Assembly (NCBI GenBank): GCA_030834985.1
Contig: JAUQWV010000001.1
Span: 120,979-184,978, forward strand
Origin: Candidatus Dojkabacteria bacterium
GTDB taxonomy: Bacteria > Patescibacteriota > Dojkabacteria > J137
Direction of reading: 5' to 3'
Length of the DNA stretch: 64,000 nt
The translations under genes and the position numbers were made by a program. The notes below the pieces were generated by a model. The model worked only from the letters and a program-made list of their open reading frames with translations, was not told where the DNA came from and made no database searches. Numbering within the stretch: position 1 is the first letter of the stretch; each line of letters begins with the position of its first letter. This document shows, piece by piece, positions 1-16,969 of the stretch.

Positions 1-421
1 CAAGCAACAACAGATCAGGATTAATTAAGTATGCAATAGCAAGATTAACTTTAGTTAGTTCGCCACCGCTTAAGGTGTTTAGTTTTTGATTCGGATCAAG
101 ATCTTTACCGCTAAAATGAGTTTTAAAAACTTCTAATACCTGCCACCACTCATCAAAATACTTGGATATATATTCATGGGCAGGTATCTTTTGATTTAAA
201 AGTTCTAAATCTAATTGAGGAACGTAATAGATAGTACCAAATAAAAATATACCTGTCTGTTGAGTGATGATTGCATTTAGTAATGAAGTTTTACCACTTC
301 CGTTTGCTCCAACTAGTCCGATTTTTTTATCTATAGATACAGAAGCAGAAACTTCTTTTAATAAAGTTTTGTTTTCGACTTCGATATTTAGTTTTTGGAT
401 TGATAGGATTTGCTTTGACAC
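1..421 (-). CDS. ABC transporter ATP-binding protein, N-terminal part (3' end beyond window edge); GTG start at 421
   Basis: Minus-strand translation reads VSKQILSIQKLNIEV...GLVGANGSGKTSLLN (Walker A)...NTLSGGELTKVNLAIA (ABC signature LSGGE), continuous to position 1. The listed + ORF 264..470 is antisense to it. Confidence 0.75.
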   Translation of the reverse strand, partial: MSKQILSIQKLNIEVENKTLLKEVSASVSIDKKIGLVGANGSGKTSLLNAIITQQTGIFLFGTIYYVPQLDLELLNQKIPAHEYISKYFDEWWQVLEVFKTHFSGKDLDPNQKLNTLSGGELTKVNLAIAYLINPDLLLL

Positions 422-467
422 ACAAAGATTATATCCTATTAGGTTGAAGATGTTTATGGATGTTGGT

Positions 468-498
468 TAGGGGCGCTGCTCAAGCGCCCCTAACCTGT
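468..498 (-). terminator. GC-rich perfect hairpin (13 bp stem ggttaggggcgct / agcgcccctaacc, 5 nt loop) downstream of the 518..883 gene
   Basis: Palindrome read directly from the sequence; it lies between the stop of the minus gene 518..883 and the GTG start of the ABC gene. Confidence 0.5.
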
Positions 499-517: not shown

Positions 518-883
518 TTAGTTCAGGTAGGCGTTTTCTGGCGGGATACCGTACTTATAGTACATACTTTCTTCAAGCTCGCGTAGAAACGCGATTCGGT
601 CTTCCGCGTGTTTAATTCCTACACACAGCGCCATGAAGAATTTTTCGTACATAAACGGTCTGGTATCCATGCCTTGCGCCCACAAGTGGAATTCCCCGGC
701 AAGGAACACGCCTTCCTGCCACACCTGAAGGTGTAGTCCTACTTTCTCAGGATTAGGGCAGTCCTTGACGACGAAAACGGCGTTGATACCGTTATCCGCC
801 AGTCGGTTCTGCGCTTCTAAGCTGAGTCGTTCAAGAAGGTCTTTGGCTTCGCTGTAATCCGTGGACATTTCTACTCTCCTCAT
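518..883 (-). CDS. hypothetical 121 aa protein; visibly GC-rich relative to flanks; paralog of 1624..1974
   Basis: Intact ORF. Shares a conserved core with the 1624..1974 product (AVFVVKDCPNPEKVGLHLQV vs AIVHIDDCDENPEGEVCLQLII, plus N-terminal Y.EA.DLL.R). G+C by eye ~45-50% versus ~30% around it. Confidence 0.6.
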   Translation of the reverse strand: MRRVEMSTDYSEAKDLLERLSLEAQNRLADNGINAVFVVKDCPNPEKVGLHLQVWQEGVFLAGEFHLWAQGMDTRPFMYEKFFMALCVGIKHAEDRIAFLRELEESMYYKYGIPPENAYLN

Positions 884-984
884 TGTTTACGAGCTAATAA
901 TTTTATCAATTTTGTCGCCAGCTATCAATAACGCGTATATATAGATAATTTTGTAAAAGAGGACATGTGATATAAAATTCGTGA

Positions 985-1581
985 ATGGAAGATCAGAATT
1001 CGGAGAAAAAATTCAGTCGAAAAAAGATTAACTTTGAAACTTTTTTAAAGCTTGAAGAATTTGCAAGAGTTAATCCAACTCAGTTCAGACGTTTATGGCT
1101 GTTGTATCAATACCAGGTTTTTAGAGTAACTTTAGATTTTAGTACTGCTAATTTTATTATTAAAAGTTGGGTTGTAGATAACGCGCTGAGATCTAGGTAT
1201 CCTGAATATGTATATACAGCTACGCGATCTCAGCGCTTAGGTAAGATGTATGAACAAAAACAGGATGAATTTATTGATATGTATACAAAGCAGACTGCAG
1301 CTGAAGGTTTTGATATTTTTGATTATGCCATTAAGTCTGAGCCTGAGGATTTGTTGCATTTAACTGAAAAATCAGCCATATTCGTTGAAGATTTTTTTAG
1401 AAAGGTATTAAAACTTCCTGCTGATATATGGCAGGCAATTATTAGTGGCAACATTGAGGCTATGCAGAACGTCTATATCCCTTTACCTACAAGACTTGAG
1501 AAATACTTGGCAATAAGTCTAGCTTCTAATAACGGTAACTCGGATTTAGATGTTGATTGGGAATCTTTTTTTGAAAGTTGA
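985..1581 (+). CDS. hypothetical protein (198 aa)
   Basis: Intact AT-rich ORF flanked by the two GC-rich paralogs; no recognisable motif. Confidence 0.5.
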   Translation: MEDQNSEKKFSRKKINFETFLKLEEFARVNPTQFRRLWLLYQYQVFRVTLDFSTANFIIKSWVVDNALRSRYPEYVYTATRSQRLGKMYEQKQDEFIDMYTKQTAAEGFDIFDYAIKSEPEDLLHLTEKSAIFVEDFFRKVLKLPADIWQAIISGNIEAMQNVYIPLPTRLEKYLAISLASNNGNSDLDVDWESFFES

Positions 1582-1587
1582 GTATTT

Positions 1588-1620
1588 GGGAGCCGCGGCC
1601 TTTCAGGCGCGGCTCCCTTT
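1588..1620. terminator. GC-rich hairpin (gggagccgcg...cgcggctccc) followed by ttt; bidirectional terminator between convergent genes
   Basis: 10 bp perfect stem between the stop of 985..1581 (+) and the stop of 1624..1974 (-). Confidence 0.5.
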
Positions 1621-1623
1621 GAT

Positions 1624-1974
1624 TCAGTTCCAGACAGCTTCTGGACGAATCGATCCGTTCAGTATTTCTACAAGCTCCGATAACGACCGGAGCCCTTCTT
1701 TGAATACTTCCGCCGCTCTTTCTTGAAAGAGCAACGGGTCCATCGATTCGTATGTTTTATTCCATACCTCCTTTCTGAAACGGAATCTTGTTGCAAGAAT
1801 GGTGGCTTCTATTATCAACTGAAGACATACTTCGCCTTCAGGGTTTTCGTCGCAATCGTCAATGTGAACGATTGCGTCTGGGAGCCCACCCATTCCGTCT
1901 TCGCCCTCTCTCAGCCCTAGTTCTATTACTTTGGCTGTTCTTGCGAGAAGGTCTAACGCCTCGTGATACTTCAT
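1624..1974 (-). CDS. hypothetical 116 aa protein; GC-rich; paralog of 518..883
   Basis: See 518..883; shared DC(D/P)ENPE..V.L.LQ core; elevated G+C by eye. Confidence 0.6.
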   Translation of the reverse strand: MKYHEALDLLARTAKVIELGLREGEDGMGGLPDAIVHIDDCDENPEGEVCLQLIIEATILATRFRFRKEVWNKTYESMDPLLFQERAAEVFKEGLRSLSELVEILNGSIRPEAVWN

Positions 1975-2065
1975 GTCAGTCCCCTACCTTCTAGAGCGGC
2001 ACTATATATAACTTACGAGCACCGAATTTTAACAAATAATTATGTTATTGGAAACTGTAAACAAA

Positions 2066-2114: not shown

Positions 2115-2525
2115 TTAAGCTGCGTTTTTCTTTACATTTTCTTCAAAATCCTTTTTTAACTGCTCTACTTGTTCTCTAATTTTTTCTCCTAAATTACCAG
2201 CATCCTCTTCTGCGGATTCTCTGGCATTCTTAATATCTTCTGATATAGCTTTTAATTGAGCTTTAAAGTCTTTTGCTTGATCGCTTTTTTCTATCTCTGC
2301 TTTTAATTCTTCAAAAGAAGCAGCTAGTTTATCTAAGAAATCTCCTCTTAGATTATCAACTAGTTCCTCTCCTTTTTCTTTTGCAGTATTTAAGCCCTCT
2401 GCAATTTTCTTTCTATTTTCTTCATCACTTAATATTTTTGCTGCAGCAACACCGGCTCCTACAACAGCAGCTCCGGCCAACACCTTACCTACAATGTTGT
2501 TATTGTTTTTCTTGTTATTCGCCAT
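2115..2525 (-). CDS. small membrane-anchored coiled-coil protein (YtxH-like architecture)
   Basis: N-terminal Gly/Ala-rich hydrophobic segment VLAGAAVVGAGVAAA followed by ~100 aa of charged, heptad-like sequence. Confidence 0.5.
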   Translation of the reverse strand: MANNKKNNNNIVGKVLAGAAVVGAGVAAAKILSDEENRKKIAEGLNTAKEKGEELVDNLRGDFLDKLAASFEELKAEIEKSDQAKDFKAQLKAISEDIKNARESAEEDAGNLGEKIREQVEQLKKDFEENVKKNAA

Positions 2526-4209: not shown

Positions 4210-4284
4210 GGTGTTGTGGCCAAGTAGTAAGGCGAGAGTCTGCAAAACTCTTATGCGCGGGTGCAAATCCCGCCAACACCTCCA
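4210..4284 (+). tRNA. tRNA-Cys (GCA), CCA encoded
   Basis: Cloverleaf folded by hand: acceptor ggtgttg/caacacc, anticodon stem agagt/actct with loop ctGCAaa, T-stem gcggg/cccgc, discriminator t plus cca. The T-loop reads tGcaaat (G at position 55). Confidence 0.8.
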
Positions 4285-4298
4285 TTTTGAACTACCGG

Positions 4299-4389
4299 GG
4301 AGAGGTCGCATAGTTGGTCTAGTGCGCAGTCCTGGAAAGACTGTTTCCTCGCAAGGGGAACGCAGGTTCGAATCCTGTCCTCTCCGCCA
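4299..4389 (+). tRNA. tRNA-Ser (GGA), class II with long variable arm, CCA encoded
   Basis: Acceptor ggagagg/cctctcc, anticodon stem cagtc/gactg with loop ctGGAaa, 18 nt variable arm, T-loop ttcgaat, discriminator g plus cca. Confidence 0.8.
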
Positions 4390-4928: not shown

Positions 4929-5978
4929 ATGGCGAATATAAATTTTGATAGGGAGTACTATAAAAATTTAATAGCGAAGCACGGGTATCAAGAGCTGAAT
5001 ATTTCTGCAATAGATTTCAATCTTGGCGATATTAACAAAGATATATTACAGAGAAAATGGTTGTGTCACAGTAAAGGCTATATATTTGCAAAAGAACTTC
5101 TAGATAAAAAATCAATTGTAACAACTGGTATAGGAATAAGTGGTGCTCCACATATGGGCACTTTAGGACAAATTTTTAATTCTATATTCCTTCAGAACCA
5201 TGGTATTAATACGCAATTTGTATTAGGAGATTTAGATGCTTACAACGGTAAAAAACTTTCATTATCTTACGTAAAAGAACTTTCAGAACAGTATAAATCA
5301 TTTATTACTAAGTTAGGCTATTCTACAACGGATGGAAATATACTAAGGAATCAATTTGATGCAAGTGAAGTAACTAGGACAATGTATCTAATTGCAAAAT
5401 TTATAGAAGATAAAGATTTTGATAATGTGGAAGAAGATCTTCACAATTTTTATTCTGATAAAGGAAAAGTAGATAAGGATATGTCATTTAGACGTAAGAC
5501 TTCTCTTACTCTTATGACTGCAGATTTTATAGATCTTGTTATCAATCACAGTTTTACTAACGTGTTAGTTACATTAGGAGTAGATGAACATAAGTATGTT
5601 TTGTTTTCAGAAAAGATTCTAGAAAGAGTTATAGAGTCCGGTGAAATACTACCAAGCGACAGTATTATAAATTTTGGAGCAATGTACACTCACATAATTA
5701 GAGGCTTTAATAACTACCCTAAAATGTCGAAATCATTCCCTGATTCTTCGATAAATATTGAAATGAAATCAGATGAAATAAGAAATAGAATTTTGAATGA
5801 AAGAACAAACAAAATTCCAGAAGAAGACACTGTATATCAAATGATGTGTCTAGTAAGTAAATTTAATAGTGAGGAACTGTCAAAAAGATATATTGCATGC
5901 AAAGAAGATAAAGCATTATGGATGAAATATAAAAACGACTATATAGAATACTTGATAGATATTTTTAAACTGTGGTGA
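4929..5978 (+). CDS. class I aminoacyl-tRNA synthetase paralog, TrpRS/TyrRS family, divergent (349 aa)
   Basis: HIGH-region-like GIGISGAPHMGTLGQ, FVLGDLDA, and an intact KMSKS (YPKMSKSFPDSSINI...IRNRI). It has an extra ~65 aa N-terminal extension. First gene of a tightly packed operon. Confidence 0.6.
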   Translation: MANINFDREYYKNLIAKHGYQELNISAIDFNLGDINKDILQRKWLCHSKGYIFAKELLDKKSIVTTGIGISGAPHMGTLGQIFNSIFLQNHGINTQFVLGDLDAYNGKKLSLSYVKELSEQYKSFITKLGYSTTDGNILRNQFDASEVTRTMYLIAKFIEDKDFDNVEEDLHNFYSDKGKVDKDMSFRRKTSLTLMTADFIDLVINHSFTNVLVTLGVDEHKYVLFSEKILERVIESGEILPSDSIINFGAMYTHIIRGFNNYPKMSKSFPDSSINIEMKSDEIRNRILNERTNKIPEEDTVYQMMCLVSKFNSEELSKRYIACKEDKALWMKYKNDYIEYLIDIFKLW

Positions 5979-5979
5979 A

Positions 5980-7107
5980 ATGAAAAAATTTGCAAATGGC
6001 ATACAATTTAATAACCCTTTACACGAAGCGATATATCGGATAAACGTTGGACAAGATATAACTGAAGAGATGGCATACAATGCTTTTAGCTATACACTTA
6101 ACATTGAGGATGAAATTAATCGTGGAGTCTGCTTAGGAGTACTACTAAATGGTATAGTTTCCAAAAGACCCCAAATACATGAAATTCTCGGGATATTAAA
6201 AGCAACTCTTGACTATGATGGGATAGATATTACAAATCAAAAAAGATTGGAGATGCCTAACAATGCCCGAGTTATAGGCTATGCAGGGAGCGGTAAGAAA
6301 GGTATAAAAACTATTAATGTGTCTTCTTGCGCAGCCATCGTTGCTGCCACAGCGGGTACTTATGTGGCAAAATCATGTTCTGGTTCTACATCGTCTGTAT
6401 CAGGTTCTGCAGATTTCATTGAAATTTTAGGTGCCAATATTAGCCAAACTAATGAAGAGATGATAGATATAATGAAAAAGACTGGCTTAGGTTTCTTTAA
6501 AATTGAAAAAATGATCCCTAAGTTTGATAAGGTATATGGAGGTCATTTCTATGCACCTAATGCTCTAAGCTTTGGATTAGCAGGTATTTTATTGCCTTTT
6601 AGACCTGACAATTTATTTTACGGTTTAGCCCATCCTAATATTCACTTACTTATAAATGTACTAAAAGAATTAAATTATCGTTATGCATTCGTTGCATCAA
6701 CAACTGATGATGGAGTGCACTTTCTTGATGAGATTGGAATATTTGGTATGACTTCGGTTATTGGTATTCAGGAACATAAAATTGGTCATACTCTTACTTT
6801 CTCCCCAGCAGAAGATTTAAAATTACAAGGATACAATAGAAGTTCAATTGAACCAGGTAAGACTAGATTGGAGAATGTGAAAATGGGTGTCGATGTTTTA
6901 AGAGGGAAAGGCCAAATAGCTCATGAAGATTTGATTTGTGTAAATGCAGGAACCTTACTATGTTTAGACAAAAAAGCTAAAGACTTAACGGAAGGTTACA
7001 CTATATCAAAAGAGACTATCAAATCAGGGAAAGCAATAGAAAAATTAACTGAATTTATTACTGCAACTGGTGGTGATCTCAATACTTTAAATCAGTTTTT
7101 AGACTAA
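5980..7107 (+). CDS. glycosyltransferase family 3 fold protein (TrpD / nucleoside phosphorylase-like), divergent
   Basis: INVSSCAAIVAATAGTYVAKSCSGSTSSVSGSADFIEILGANI aligns by eye with the TrpD core [38 protein letters not shown]. The phosphate-loop GTGGD is replaced by GSGKKG and KHGNR by KSCSG. Confidence 0.55.
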   Translation: MKKFANGIQFNNPLHEAIYRINVGQDITEEMAYNAFSYTLNIEDEINRGVCLGVLLNGIVSKRPQIHEILGILKATLDYDGIDITNQKRLEMPNNARVIGYAGSGKKGIKTINVSSCAAIVAATAGTYVAKSCSGSTSSVSGSADFIEILGANISQTNEEMIDIMKKTGLGFFKIEKMIPKFDKVYGGHFYAPNALSFGLAGILLPFRPDNLFYGLAHPNIHLLINVLKELNYRYAFVASTTDDGVHFLDEIGIFGMTSVIGIQEHKIGHTLTFSPAEDLKLQGYNRSSIEPGKTRLENVKMGVDVLRGKGQIAHEDLICVNAGTLLCLDKKAKDLTEGYTISKETIKSGKAIEKLTEFITATGGDLNTLNQFLD

Positions 7108-15082: not shown

Positions 15083-16969
15083 GTGATGAAGCAGTATCGG
15101 CGTTCGCAGTACAAAAAGCTCTCAAAGCAAGGTGCTTTACATAGCTTCTTGGCTATCCTTTGGGAGTATCGGGCGTTTATGTACGTTCCGGCATTTTTTG
15201 TTTTAATGCTGGAGCTGGCACAGATGGGGGCAAGGGTCTTTATTTCAGAGATTCTTACCCGAATTGAGTTGGCTGACTGGGGAGTACTTGGCGTTCTGCT
15301 GATTTCTCTCTTTGCCTACAACATGCTCACTTTGCTTCTTGACGTTAAGATGGTACGAGCAGTCATTGAAAAGGTCGGCTATGACTTTGCATTTGCATTC
15401 GAAAATCGAGTCATAAGCCACGTAATTCGGCTAGGTCATACTTTCAATTCATCATTTCCTATCTCTGTAACCCTAGATAGGATCTCTAAGATTGAAAGGG
15501 TGTCTGACCTTGTTGAACAGGGCTTTTGGGCTTTGTTTAACAACCTGTTTCAAGGTGCAATAAGCATTGTGGTACTGGCAATCTACTTGCCACAGGCAGT
15601 TCCAATTGTAATCATTGTGTTCTTCCTGTTCCTTCGGTTCAATGGGCACATGATTGCAAAGCAGGGAGTTGTAAGGCGCCGGCGAAAAGATCGAGGTGAG
15701 GATAAAGCAGAAACTCGAATGAGACTGATTTCAGCAAATACTACTCTGCTCTCTAACAATGCGTTAGACCGGACAGAGGAAGAGGTATTTGCTCAGTCTA
15801 GAAATCTAAAGCGTGTGGGAATCCTTGAGTTGCTCTATGTTCTTCGGGGCAATGGGATAATCAGGGACATCCTTCTGTACTTTGGTCGGTTCTCGGTACT
15901 TTCATTTGCAGTGTACATGGCACAAATCAAACTGATAGACATCCCTAAGCTGGTTCTAATCTATACAGTAAGCGAGACCATGTTTATTGGTCTTTGGGGT
16001 GTTGTAAGGTTTATCTATTCGTTCATGTACGAAAGCCCGTCGATAATTAAAATCGATGAGCTGATGGCTATTAAGCCAACTGTAACAGAGCCTGAAAGTG
16101 CTGTGACCATTCCAAGCGGTCCTTTGGGATATTCTCTGCAAGGAGTAAGCTTTACCTACAAGGGAATCGAAAGTAAGTCAGAAAAACAGGAGAATCCGTT
16201 CTTTACGGAAGCTCTGAAGAAAGCGAATGCACTACGTCTGCAACTTGGCCTTGAAGAATATGTAGAAAGAAAAGAGGAGGAGAAGCCGCAGCATTTATGC
16301 GGACTTACTCTTAACATACTTCCAGGTCAAAAGGTTGCTCTGGTCGGGCAAAGCGGTTCGGGTAAAAGCACTCTAGCGCTGATGCTTTCTAAGCTTCAGC
16401 TGGCGGATACTGGCGAAGTTTATGTAAACGGTATCGAGATGAGAGAGCTTAACGGCTATGAACTCCGTTCCAGAATCGCTGTTGTACCTCAAGGCAGCAA
16501 TGTTGATATCTTCAACGATAGTCTACTTTACAATATCACATTGGGTGATCCGAGCTTCACCGAGCAAGATGTTATTGAAGCGTTAAAGGTAGCTGAGCTG
16601 TGGGATACAGTTTGTCAGTGGCCTTTGATGATCTTTGAAACTATCGGGGAGCGCGGGCGTACATTGTCGGGCGGTCAGCAGCAAAGGGTCGCAATCGCCC
16701 GCGCTGCAATCCGTAAACCTGACCTCATCATTCTAGATGAGGCTACAAGCGCATTGGATACTCAAACAGAGCGTGCAGTTCAGGATTCGCTAAATAAGCT
16801 GCTTGATGGACGAACAGCAATAATCATTGCTCACAGGTTATCCACAATTAAGGATGTGGATAAGATTGTAGTGATGAAAGACGGCTGTATAGTTGAAGAA
16901 GGCAGCTGGAACGAATTGGTCGGTCAAGACGGCGAATTTGCCGCGCTTGTAGATGCGCAAACCCTATAG
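15083..16969 (+). CDS. ABC transporter, fused permease/ATP-binding protein (exporter type), GC-rich
   Basis: N-terminal multi-TM domain; NBD with LVGQSGSGKSTLALML (Walker A), LSGGQQQRVAIARAA (signature), IILDEATSALD (Walker B) and IAHRLST (H-loop). RBS aaggagacgtgtgATG. Confidence 0.8.
   Translation: MMKQYRRSQYKKLSKQGALHSFLAILWEYRAFMYVPAFFVLMLELAQMGARVFISEILTRIELADWGVLGVLLISLFAYNMLTLLLDVKMVRAVIEKVGYDFAFAFENRVISHVIRLGHTFNSSFPISVTLDRISKIERVSDLVEQGFWALFNNLFQGAISIVVLAIYLPQAVPIVIIVFFLFLRFNGHMIAKQGVVRRRRKDRGEDKAETRMRLISANTTLLSNNALDRTEEEVFAQSRNLKRVGILELLYVLRGNGIIRDILLYFGRFSVLSFAVYMAQIKLIDIPKLVLIYTVSETMFIGLWGVVRFIYSFMYESPSIIKIDELMAIKPTVTEPESAVTIPSGPLGYSLQGVSFTYKGIESKSEKQENPFFTEALKKANALRLQLGLEEYVERKEEEKPQHLCGLTLNILPGQKVALVGQSGSGKSTLALMLSKLQLADTGEVYVNGIEMRELNGYELRSRIAVVPQGSNVDIFNDSLLYNITLGDPSFTEQDVIEALKVAELWDTVCQWPLMIFETIGERGRTLSGGQQQRVAIARAAIRKPDLIILDEATSALDTQTERAVQDSLNKLLDGRTAIIIAHRLSTIKDVDKIVVMKDGCIVEEGSWNELVGQDGEFAALVDAQTL

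What the first reader, a model, noticed from the sequence alone, without database searches (positions are those of the whole stretch)
518..1974. Two paralogous GC-rich small genes flanking an AT-rich hypothetical gene
ORFs 518..883 and 1624..1974 (121 and 116 aa, both minus strand) share a clear common core (Y.EA.DLL.R...A(V/I)..(V/I).DC.ENPE..V.L.LQ), and both are visibly far more GC-rich than everything around them. They flank an AT-rich 198 aa ORF in a divergent/convergent arrangement, and each of the three genes has its own GC-rich hairpin terminator. Compositionally distinct paralogous small genes are typical of recently acquired cargo such as immunity or antitoxin-like modules, phage accessory genes or polymorphic-toxin-associated genes. 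I could not assign the family.
Basis: seen in the sequence. Interest (0 to 1): 0.55.

Follow-up and report, generated by a model that had tools for sequence, protein, structure and literature searches.

The report
Orphan GC-rich paralogous small genes
Two small, related, unusually GC-rich genes in an AT-rich Dojkabacteria (CPR) genome are real protein-coding genes of a family found nowhere else; they sit in a hypervariable spot beside a mobile-element insertion site, and their function is unknown.

Summary
ORF A (518..868/883, minus) and ORF B (1624..1974, minus) are true paralogues: about 30% identity end to end, plus homologous promoters. They have the two highest GC3 values of the window's 57 ORFs (0.59 and 0.47; background 0.24±0.05). 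Substitution patterns show both encode proteins under purifying selection, not RNAs. The proteins are small, acidic and soluble. The family is an orphan: an exhaustive HMMER scan of 1.84 billion representatives, Pfam, NCBIfam, PHROGs, PADLOC, PDB, phage, plasmid, viral and GTDB collections all gave nothing. Only two hairpins serve the three genes. The third hairpin belongs to the neighbouring 136-aa gene.

"Recently acquired cargo" is only partly supported. A divergent relative (L018) keeps a GC-rich A-type gene beside an AT-rich middle gene despite saturated synonymous divergence. Three mosaic B alleles are each GC-rich. So the GC richness is long-lived. In near-clonal strains, the tract from the middle gene to B (~900–1950) is hypervariable. 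It contains the insertion site of a 4.9-kb serine-recombinase element present in sibling strains; the window is the empty site. No toxin, phage or defence link was found. My best guess for function, an immunity-like or modulator binding protein, is an inference with low confidence.

The parts
465..495 (-). Terminator-like hairpin downstream of ORF A: 13-bp perfect GC-rich stem, 5-nt loop, no U-tract.
   Evidence: dG -26.9 kcal/mol, z -7.2. It lies between the A stop (518) and the promoter-like site of the next minus-strand ABC gene (456->428).
518..868 (-). ORF A: 116 aa plus stop (an upstream in-frame ATG at 883 would give 121 aa). Small, acidic, soluble protein of an orphan family. GC 0.50, GC3 0.59.
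   Evidence: pI 4.86. Purifying selection against the L001/L009 alleles (pN 0.007, pS 0.055-0.069). Against the L018 orthologue, differences by codon position are 35/25/60, p=3e-4.
874..880 (-). Shine-Dalgarno sequence (AGGAGAG) 5 nt upstream of the ATG at 868.
   Evidence: Read from the sequence. The L018 orthologue starts at the equivalent Met.
887..928 (-). Promoter of A: -35 TTGATA (928-923), extended -10 TGATAAAAT (to 900), conserved CTCGTAA (893-887).
951..978 (+). Promoter-like site of the middle gene, back to back with A's promoter.
   Evidence: This is a consensus match only.
985..1581 (+). Middle gene: 198 aa, AT-rich (GC 0.338), predicted all-helical. An orphan with moderately hypervariable alleles (91-95% nt identity among near-clonal strains).
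1536..1548 (.). Insertion site (attB zone) of a 4.9-kb serine-recombinase element present in sibling strains. The crossover is around TCG at 1540-1542. The site is empty in the window.
1588..1617 (.). Bidirectional GC-rich hairpin shared by the convergent middle gene and ORF B. The stem is conserved and the loop varies among alleles.
   Evidence: dG about -26 kcal/mol on either strand.
1624..1974 (-). ORF B: 116 aa plus stop, paralogue of A. GC 0.47, GC3 0.47. Hypervariable mosaic locus with three alleles at 100, 82 and 77% nt identity.
   Evidence: pI 4.61. pN 0.074 against pS 0.47. Differences by codon position 15/7/35, p=1.8e-5.
1981..1991 (-). Shine-Dalgarno region of B (GAAGGTAGGGG). It is predicted to pair with codons 8-10 (ACCUUCU).
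   Evidence: The pairing is predicted only, and there is no variation with which to test it.
2013..2054 (-). Promoter of B: -35-like TTTCCA (2054-2049), extended -10 TGTTAAAAT (to 2026), conserved CTCGTAA (2019-2013). Homologous to A's promoter.

Best explanation
A and B are real protein-coding paralogues that arose by duplication of a whole unit (promoter plus coding sequence) within a narrow lineage of Candidatus Dojkabacteria. Each is its own transcription unit, with an extended -10 promoter carrying a conserved CTCGTAA start region, a Shine-Dalgarno sequence, a 116-aa ORF and a strong GC-rich hairpin. Each encodes a small, acidic, soluble protein of a family with no detectable relative outside this lineage.

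Together with the AT-rich middle gene they form a resident three-gene block. Its middle-gene-to-B half is a recombination hot spot that coincides with the attachment site of a 4.9-kb serine-recombinase element. The GC-rich synonymous codon usage is not a fading trace of recent transfer. It has persisted through saturating synonymous divergence. Either it is held by selection on the transcript or codon choice, or it is repeatedly renewed by recombination with an unsampled GC-richer gene pool.

Shown: coding status, paralogy, orphan status, the compositional anomaly and its persistence, the allele mosaicism, and the empty insertion site.

Inferred: function. I commit to small cytoplasmic binding proteins that neutralise or modulate a partner (immunity-like or antagonist-like), with the middle protein as the most likely partner. 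My probability for that specific function is only about 0.25. The confidence given here (0.55) is for the statement as a whole apart from the function guess. The structural and evolutionary parts alone I would put at about 0.8.
For: Coding: B1 against B2 gives pN 0.074 and pS 0.47, with 35 of 57 differences at codon position 3 (p=1.8e-5). A against A' gives 35/25/60 (p=3e-4). Rfam finds nothing.

Paralogy. The shared promoter motif is exact only at these two sites, which hold two of the only three CTCGTAA heptamers in 64 kb.

Orphan status: the only true hits in 1.84 billion representatives are the genes themselves. The hits P0004 and P0005 are repeat-summed artefacts. Nothing was found in Pfam, PHROGs, PADLOC, NCBIfam or PDB, nor in GTDB, IMG/VR, phages, plasmids or JGI contigs.

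Composition: top two GC3 values of 57 ORFs.

Persistence: the L018 A-type gene has GC3 0.55 beside a middle-gene homologue with GC3 0.32. Third positions differ at 69% and 54% respectively. Each B allele patch is GC-rich.

Residency: the block is present in all sibling contexts.

Hypervariability: the tract ~900-1950 varies while flanks are 98.6-100% identical.

Element and empty site.

Protein properties: pI 4.6-4.9 and no hydrophobic segment. A-middle adjacency is kept in the divergent L018 lineage.
Against: There is no functional evidence of any kind. No toxin, nuclease or defence gene is adjacent, and the three genes are not co-transcribed. Both AF2 models are low confidence (pLDDT 53 and 56), and the fold searches are meaningless.

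The persistence argument rests on one 1.5-kb contig (L018, with a truncated A') and on allele patches of unknown origin.

Strong mRNA folding (z -2.4 to -6.2) is not specific to A and B. The window's other GC-rich gene, the ABC exporter, shows z down to -5.6. The three B alleles give no covariation support for a conserved fold.

Low pN/pS in B and the middle gene is not the signature of an arms race.

An unrelated third GC-rich ORF at the same locus in L018 fits cassette-like import better than selection on one family.
Confidence: 0.55

Rival explanations
1. Plain horizontal acquisition. A and B (and the extra L018 ORF) are cargo imported from a GC-richer donor or mobile gene pool into an integration hot spot. 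Their GC richness is donor signature only. It is kept high because chromosomal copies are repeatedly replaced or patched by recombination with that pool. No selection on composition is involved.
For: There is a large GC3 anomaly. Another GC-rich gene in the window, the ABC exporter at 15083..16969, suggests the genome does take up GC-richer DNA. L018 has an unrelated GC-rich 128-aa ORF at the same locus. The B alleles are recombination mosaics with abrupt boundaries. A serine-recombinase attachment site lies inside the block.
Against: No donor or mobile-element homologue was found in any collection. A, A' and B share an AT-rich, host-like promoter, so the unit has been resident since before the A/B duplication and the L018 split. 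A-middle adjacency is conserved across saturated divergence. The block is fixed in all sampled strains. The element that actually uses the site is AT-rich (GC 0.32) and does not carry A or B.
Confidence: 0.3
2. A three-gene toxin-immunity or toxin-antitoxin-like module. The middle protein is a toxin or effector, and A and B are alternative acidic neutralisers. Allelic co-diversification of B with the middle gene reflects specificity matching.
For: A and B are small, acidic and cytoplasmic. B and the middle gene are the hypervariable part of an otherwise clonal region, and the B alleles switch abruptly. A-middle linkage is conserved in L018. The conserved acidic/aromatic C-terminal tail of the middle protein (…SFFES) is replaced when the element inserts.
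Against: There are no toxin, antitoxin or immunity domains. The genes have separate promoters and terminators and lie on opposite strands. pN/pS is about 0.1 in both B and the middle gene, which is not diversifying selection. A is conserved while the middle gene varies. No profile similarity links the two families.
Confidence: 0.15
3. The GC-rich islands are structured non-coding RNAs, as GC-rich islands in AT-rich genomes usually are, and the ORFs are incidental.
For: The GC islands resemble the tRNA island at 4210-4389. Folding z-scores are very negative on both strands.
Against: The strong third-codon-position bias and low pN/pS across alleles and orthologues show that the reading frame is under selection. 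Good Shine-Dalgarno sequences are present. There is no Rfam match. Covariation is unfavourable, with 2 compensatory against about 19 broken pairs. The GC-rich ABC exporter, an undoubted protein gene, has similar z-scores.
Confidence: 0.03
4. Highly expressed native genes whose GC-ending codons reflect translational selection for optimal codons.
For: C-ending codons are enriched (C3 0.32 in A against about 0.1-0.14 in host genes). Both genes have strong promoters and Shine-Dalgarno sequences.
Against: G-ending codons are equally enriched (G3 0.24-0.26). First-position GC is also raised. No other gene in the window, including housekeeping genes, approaches these values except the ABC exporter. 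No expression data exist.
Confidence: 0.05

Closest known systems
Orphan (ORFan) accessory genes in genomic islets at mobile-element integration hot spots
   Same: Atypical composition, lineage-restricted, no known domains, small autonomous transcription units. They are embedded in a locally hypervariable tract that contains an integrase attachment site, and gene content varies at the same locus in a relative (L018).
   Different: The block is fixed in all sampled strains, and its GC-rich composition has not ameliorated over saturating divergence. The mobile element that uses the site is AT-rich and does not carry these genes.
Immunity proteins of polymorphic toxin systems (CdiI, Imm and SUKH-type; orphan immunity arrays)
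   Same: About 110-120 aa, acidic, cytoplasmic, paralogous copies. Alleles show abrupt switches from identity to deep divergence.
   Different: No toxin gene or toxin C-terminal domain lies upstream. There is no match to any immunity family. The genes are on their own promoters and flank a non-toxin-like helical protein. pN/pS is low.
Type II toxin-antitoxin modules
   Same: Small acidic proteins next to a second small gene, and association with mobile DNA.
   Different: The genes are not an operon. No antitoxin DNA-binding domain or toxin fold was detected. There are three genes in divergent and convergent orientation.
Genes regulated or protected through unusual codon or nucleotide composition (for example bldA/TTA-dependent genes in Streptomyces, or ACA-less mRNAs that escape MazF). 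These are recalled from general knowledge as analogies only.
   Same: A small set of genes whose synonymous composition departs sharply and stably from the genome's.
   Different: No cognate tRNA or RNase link has been shown here, and the direction of the bias is opposite (GC-rich codons in an AT-rich genome). This was not tested.

Membership tests
Type II toxin-antitoxin module | Toxin and antitoxin genes adjacent and co-transcribed as an operon | tested here: not met
   A, the middle gene and B each have their own promoter-like site and hairpin. A is divergent from the middle gene and B is convergent with it.
Type II toxin-antitoxin module | Recognisable toxin or antitoxin domain | tested here: not met
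   No Pfam, NCBIfam, PADLOC or PHROGs match for A, B or the middle protein.
Type II toxin-antitoxin module | Toxicity of one partner, neutralised by the other | not testable with these tools
   Needs expression experiments.
Polymorphic-toxin immunity protein | Encoded immediately downstream of a toxin gene or toxin C-terminal domain, or within an orphan toxin/immunity array | tested here: not met
   The neighbours are a YtxH-like 136-aa protein, a 491-aa hypothetical, the 198-aa helical orphan and an ABC ATPase. There is no toxin domain.
Polymorphic-toxin immunity protein | Membership of a described immunity family (Imm, SUKH, CdiI and so on) | tested here: not met
   No Pfam or NCBIfam match at E<=1. 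The PDB profile search was empty.
Polymorphic-toxin immunity protein | Small cytoplasmic protein with allelic hypervariability and abrupt divergence boundaries | tested here: met
   116 aa, pI 4.6-4.9. The B alleles are mosaics with sharp boundaries. This holds for B only; A is conserved.
Structured non-coding RNA | Match to an RNA family, or covariation supporting a conserved fold, with no coding constraint | tested here: not met
   No Rfam hit. The covariation term is +2.1. Codon-position bias p=1.8e-5 and 3e-4.
Recently acquired genomic island cargo | Atypical base composition and codon usage | tested here: met
   GC3 of 0.587 and 0.474 against 0.237+-0.054.
Recently acquired genomic island cargo | Patchy presence among close relatives, or detectable homologues in a donor lineage or mobile element | tested here: not met
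   The block is present in every sibling context. No homologue was found in any other organism, phage or plasmid.
Recently acquired genomic island cargo | Composition decaying toward the host's with divergence (amelioration) | tested here: not met
   A' in L018 and all B allele patches remain GC-rich despite saturated synonymous divergence. This rests on limited data.
Integron gene cassette | attC recombination site after each ORF and an IntI tyrosine integrase nearby | tested here: not met
   The hairpins are short perfect palindromes of 10-13 bp with no attC architecture, and they differ from one another. The only recombinase at the locus, in sibling strains, is a serine recombinase.
Anti-defence (anti-CRISPR or anti-restriction) gene | Carried on a phage, plasmid or integrative element, often next to an HTH (aca-like) gene | tested here: not met
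   A and B are chromosomal and are present with or without the element. The element's HTH gene lies inside the element, not next to A or B. No PHROGs match.

The most novel reading that the evidence does not exclude
The GC-rich synonymous composition is itself the selected trait. In a roughly 33% GC CPR genome, this duplicated pair (and perhaps a few other genes) is kept GC-rich over long evolutionary time. That would make the transcripts unusually stable or structured, or invisible to an AU-directed RNase or toxin, or dependent on rare GC-ending-codon decoding. It would be a composition-based layer of regulation or protection for a small conflict- or stress-related module.
Probability: 0.2. 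Interest if true: 0.65.

Novelty: new member of a known kind. Interest (0 to 1): 0.38.

Why it matters
If the reading is right, this defines a new protein family with no relative among about 15 billion catalogued proteins, restricted to a narrow CPR lineage. It also gives a clean natural example of genes whose foreign-looking composition does not decay, which runs against the usual use of GC and codon anomalies as a clock for recent transfer. The locus further documents an active small serine-recombinase integrative element in Dojkabacteria, with both occupied and empty sites, and a sharply bounded hypervariable tract around its attachment site. That is useful for understanding how tiny symbiont genomes exchange DNA. 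The practical weight is limited while function is unknown and the persistence argument rests on few sequences.

Tried and rejected
1. Non-coding RNA: rejected. Rfam gathering scan was negative, there is clear coding constraint, and there is no covariation.

2. mRNA structure as specific evidence: weakened. A control showed that the other GC-rich gene folds equally well.

3. The 2,414-aa and 790-aa hits from the exhaustive search: rejected. They are repeat-summed artefacts, a vertebrate Sushi/CCP-repeat protein and a eukaryotic tandem repeat.

4. Structure route: AF2 of B (pLDDT 53) and of the middle protein (pLDDT 56) were too poor. Foldseek against PDB gave only E>0.6 generic helical matches. 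By eye, the A/B sequences look alpha-beta-beta-beta-alpha, not all-helical, so I do not trust the B model.

The element's integrase is absent from IMG/VR. A distant genome (L017) with a homologue of the 491-aa neighbour has lost synteny and has no block.

6. DGR-type mutagenesis of B: rejected. The substitutions are not adenine-specific, and no reverse transcriptase is present (reading).

7. Integron cassettes: rejected (hairpin architecture, no IntI).

8. The 11-bp inverted repeat inside the middle gene (1183-1193 / 1226-1236): not conserved in L018.

9. A 13-bp target duplication at the element junctions: corrected. Only about CGA is shared by attB, attL and attR.

10. The Nei-Gojobori pS of 0.96 in the B patch is inflated by two-fold codons. 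A direct count gives roughly 60% of identical-residue codons changed, which means near saturation and nothing beyond it.
Full report
**Source and setting.** The window is an AT-rich genome (GC 0.334). Source names attached to identical proteins place it in Candidatus Dojkabacteria, a CPR/Patescibacteria lineage. The finding covers three genes at 518–1974, between an ABC ATPase gene (minus strand, starting near 423) and a YtxH-like 136-aa gene (2115..2525, minus).

**1. The observation.** Both minus-strand ORFs exist. Their GC is 0.495 (A) and 0.473 (B). These are the two highest 350-nt GC peaks in 64 kb, where the mean is 0.334 and the sd 0.043.

The anomaly lies mainly at synonymous positions. 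GC3 is 0.587 and 0.474, against 0.237±0.054 for the other ORFs, so A and B rank first and second of 57. GC2 (0.32–0.35) is host-like.

The proteins are paralogous. BLASTP gives 30% identity over 63 aa with E=3e-4. A full-length alignment gives 29–31% identity, with shared motifs from the N-terminus (Y.EA.DLL.R) through DC and a conserved F…W, to the C-terminal PE…N.

Their promoters are also homologous. TTTG(A/T)TAAAATT-N5-CTCGTAA precedes A, B and the L018 orthologue of A. The exact pattern occurs only at those two sites in the window. They account for two of the only three CTCGTAA heptamers in 64 kb. The duplicated unit was therefore promoter plus coding sequence.

Two corrections are needed:
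- A most likely starts at the ATG at 868. An AGGAGAG Shine-Dalgarno lies at 874–880, and the L018 orthologue starts at the equivalent Met. That gives 116 aa, the same as B.
- Only two hairpins serve the three genes. Hairpin 465–495 follows A, and 1588–1617 is shared by the convergent middle gene and B. The hairpin at 2064–2090 terminates the neighbouring 136-aa gene.

**2. Protein genes, not RNAs.** GC-rich islands in AT-rich genomes are usually structured RNAs, so I tested this first.
- Rfam and ARAGORN find only four tRNAs, all elsewhere.
- An 82%-identical B allele (L001) differs at codon positions 1/2/3 by 15/7/35 (p=1.8e-5), with pN 0.074 and pS 0.47.
- A against its L018 orthologue differs 35/25/60 (p=3e-4).

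The reading frames are under purifying selection.

Both transcripts do fold much better than shuffled controls. Coding sequence alone gives z −2.4 to −2.8 for A and −4.9 to −5.0 for B. Full transcripts give −5.4 to −6.2, including the independent B2 allele. Two results stop me from reading a functional RNA into this:
- The three B alleles give an unfavourable covariation term, with 2 compensatory pairs against about 19 broken.
- A control shows ordinary host genes at z −1.9 to +1.9, but the window's only other GC-rich gene, the ABC exporter at 15083..16969, at −0.8 to −5.6.

Strong folding goes with GC-rich genes here in general.

**3. An orphan family.**
- Pfam, PHROGs, PADLOC and NCBIfam give nothing for A, B or the middle protein.
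- Word-indexed searches of 5.8 billion clusters find only A itself, B itself and one B variant.
- A profile search of all 1.84 billion 50%-identity representatives finds A and B plus two artefacts. One is a vertebrate Sushi-repeat protein and the other a eukaryotic tandem repeat. Both score by summing weak matches over near-identical repeats.
- A PDB profile search, GTDB species representatives, IMG/VR, JGI metagenome contigs, GenBank phages and PLSDB plasmids are all empty.
- No further paralogue exists in the window or in any fetched locus.
- The middle gene is equally isolated and unrelated to A and B.
- Both AF2 models were low confidence and the fold searches uninformative.
- The proteins are acidic (pI 4.86 and 4.61) and hydrophilic, with no hydrophobic segment.

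**4. Context in sibling strains.** Many public contigs carry the same locus with flanking genes 98.6–100% identical. B always follows the 136-aa gene, and I saw no strain lacking the block.

Three things vary.

(a) In L009-type contigs, a 4,893-bp AT-rich element (GC 0.32) lies between B and the middle gene. It carries a serine recombinase (Resolvase plus Recombinase domains), an HTH protein and five unknown ORFs. Its insertion replaces the last ~12 residues of the middle protein. attB, attL and attR share only about CGA, as expected of a serine recombinase. This places the crossover near window 1540–1542. The window is the unoccupied site.

(b) Divergence is sharply localised. The tract from about 900 to 1950 is hypervariable while everything outside is nearly clonal. 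That tract covers the A–middle intergenic region, the middle gene, and B up to about codon 10. Nucleotide identities are:

| Gene | nt identity among strains |
|---|---|
| B | three alleles: 100%, 82%, 77% |
| Middle gene | 91–95% |
| A | 98–100% |

The B alleles are patchworks. Identical stretches switch abruptly to stretches with near-saturated synonymous divergence. This is recombination with deeply diverged alleles under purifying selection. It is not hypermutation, because the changes are not base-specific.

(c) The gene beyond A differs among strains: a 510-aa ABC-F protein, or a 238-aa ABC protein plus a 236-aa protein.

**5. The GC richness is old.** Contig L018 (1.5 kb) carries a middle-gene homologue at 58% identity. 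It is AT-rich (GC3 0.32), and 54% of its third positions differ from the window's.

Divergently upstream, behind the same promoter motif, lies an A-type gene truncated at 88 aa by the contig end. It has 48% identity to A, and 69% of third positions differ. It is still GC-rich (GC 0.50, GC3 0.55). Each B allele is likewise GC-rich within its own divergent patch, with GC3 0.44–0.55.

Under the host's AT-biased background, saturated third positions should have drifted toward GC3 of about 0.24. They have not. Two explanations remain:
- Composition is held by selection on transcript stability, structure or codon choice.
- The chromosomal copies are repeatedly patched from an unsampled GC-richer pool that carries the same family.

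L018 also has an unrelated GC-rich 128-aa ORF inserted between A′ and the middle gene. It is a singleton in the protein collection. That favours the second reading. The shared AT-rich promoter, the conserved linkage and the lack of any donor favour the first. I cannot separate them with the data available, and the argument rests on few sequences.

**6. What it most likely is.** With good confidence, this is a resident, lineage-restricted three-gene block. Two duplicated, autonomously transcribed genes for small acidic soluble proteins bracket an unrelated helical protein, and the block sits at a mobile-element attachment site that is a local recombination hot spot.

Function is inferred only. 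Size, charge, paralogy, mosaic alleles and conserved linkage to the middle gene fit binding proteins that neutralise or modulate a partner, in an immunity-like or antagonist-like way. I give that about 0.25. Against it, there is no toxin or defence domain, no operon structure and low pN/pS.

Atypical composition and mobile-element-associated variability are real. "Recently acquired" and the immunity, antitoxin or phage labels are not supported by any test I could run.

**7. Novelty and score.** The family is new in the sense that it is undescribed. But orphan small genes with odd composition in variable islets are a familiar kind of thing, especially in CPR genomes. The unusual aspect is that the foreign-looking composition has not ameliorated. 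I rate interest at 0.38. The most novel reading not excluded, composition itself as the selected trait, gets a probability of about 0.2.

Noticed in passing
window 1536-1548 (empty site); L009:9307-14199, also L010-L016, L024, L025, L027, L030: A 4,893-bp AT-rich integrative element is inserted into the 3' end of the middle gene in sibling strains. It carries a serine recombinase (292-aa Resolvase+Recombinase ORF followed by a 201-aa ORF that reads across attR), an HTH_Tnp_1_2/CII-like protein and five unknown ORFs. It replaces the conserved C-terminal tail of the middle protein. attB, attL and attR share only about CGA. The integrase has no relative in IMG/VR.
   Followed up: partly
window 15083-16969 (+): A 628-aa fused ABC exporter (membrane plus ATPase domains, read from the sequence) is the window's only other strongly GC-rich gene (GC 0.45, GC3 0.455). 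Its mRNA segments also fold far better than shuffles (z down to -5.6). It is either another foreign gene or another case of maintained GC richness.
   Followed up: partly
L018:407-793 (+): An unrelated GC-rich 128-aa ORF (GC 0.475, GC3 0.55, pI 8.1, hydrophobic C-terminus) sits between the A-type gene and the middle-gene homologue in the divergent relative. It has its own Shine-Dalgarno sequence and hairpin. It is a singleton in the 15-billion-protein collection with no family match.
   Followed up: partly
window 1-430 and beyond; L001:3929-5363 against L009:15327-16859: The gene next to A differs among otherwise near-identical strains. Some have a 510-aa ABC-F-type ATPase followed by an EamA transporter. 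Others have a 238-aa ABC ATPase plus a 236-aa ORF followed by different genes. The first ~430 nt are shared, which suggests a rearrangement breakpoint inside the ABC gene.
   Followed up: no
window 1183-1193 / 1226-1236: There is an 11-bp perfect GC-rich inverted repeat (GCGCTGAGATC … GATCTCAGCGC) inside the AT-rich middle gene. It is conserved in the close alleles but not in L018, where the left arm changed without compensation. It is probably incidental.
   Followed up: yes
window 1674-1693 (within ORF B; alignment A4 columns ~363-401): A roughly 40-nt block of B that contains a 10-bp hairpin (GGGCTCCGGTCGTTATCGGAGCTT) is identical in all three otherwise mosaic B alleles, and is flanked by divergent patches. 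It could be a recombination boundary or a constrained nucleotide element.
   Followed up: no
window 4929-7107 (+): A 349-aa class-I aminoacyl-tRNA-synthetase-like gene (Pfam tRNA-synt_1b, from precomputed hits on sibling contigs) sits directly upstream of a 375-aa Glycos_transf_3 (TrpD-like) gene. Sibling contigs carry a second tRNA-synt_1b gene nearby (L010). This is an unusual pairing and might be worth a look.
   Followed up: no
search result P0004 / P0005: Method note. The exhaustive profile search reported E=3.5e-12 for a vertebrate Sushi-repeat protein and 1.9e-6 for a eukaryotic tandem-repeat protein. In both cases weak per-repeat scores add up over near-identical repeats. Such hits should not be read as homology.
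   Followed up: yes
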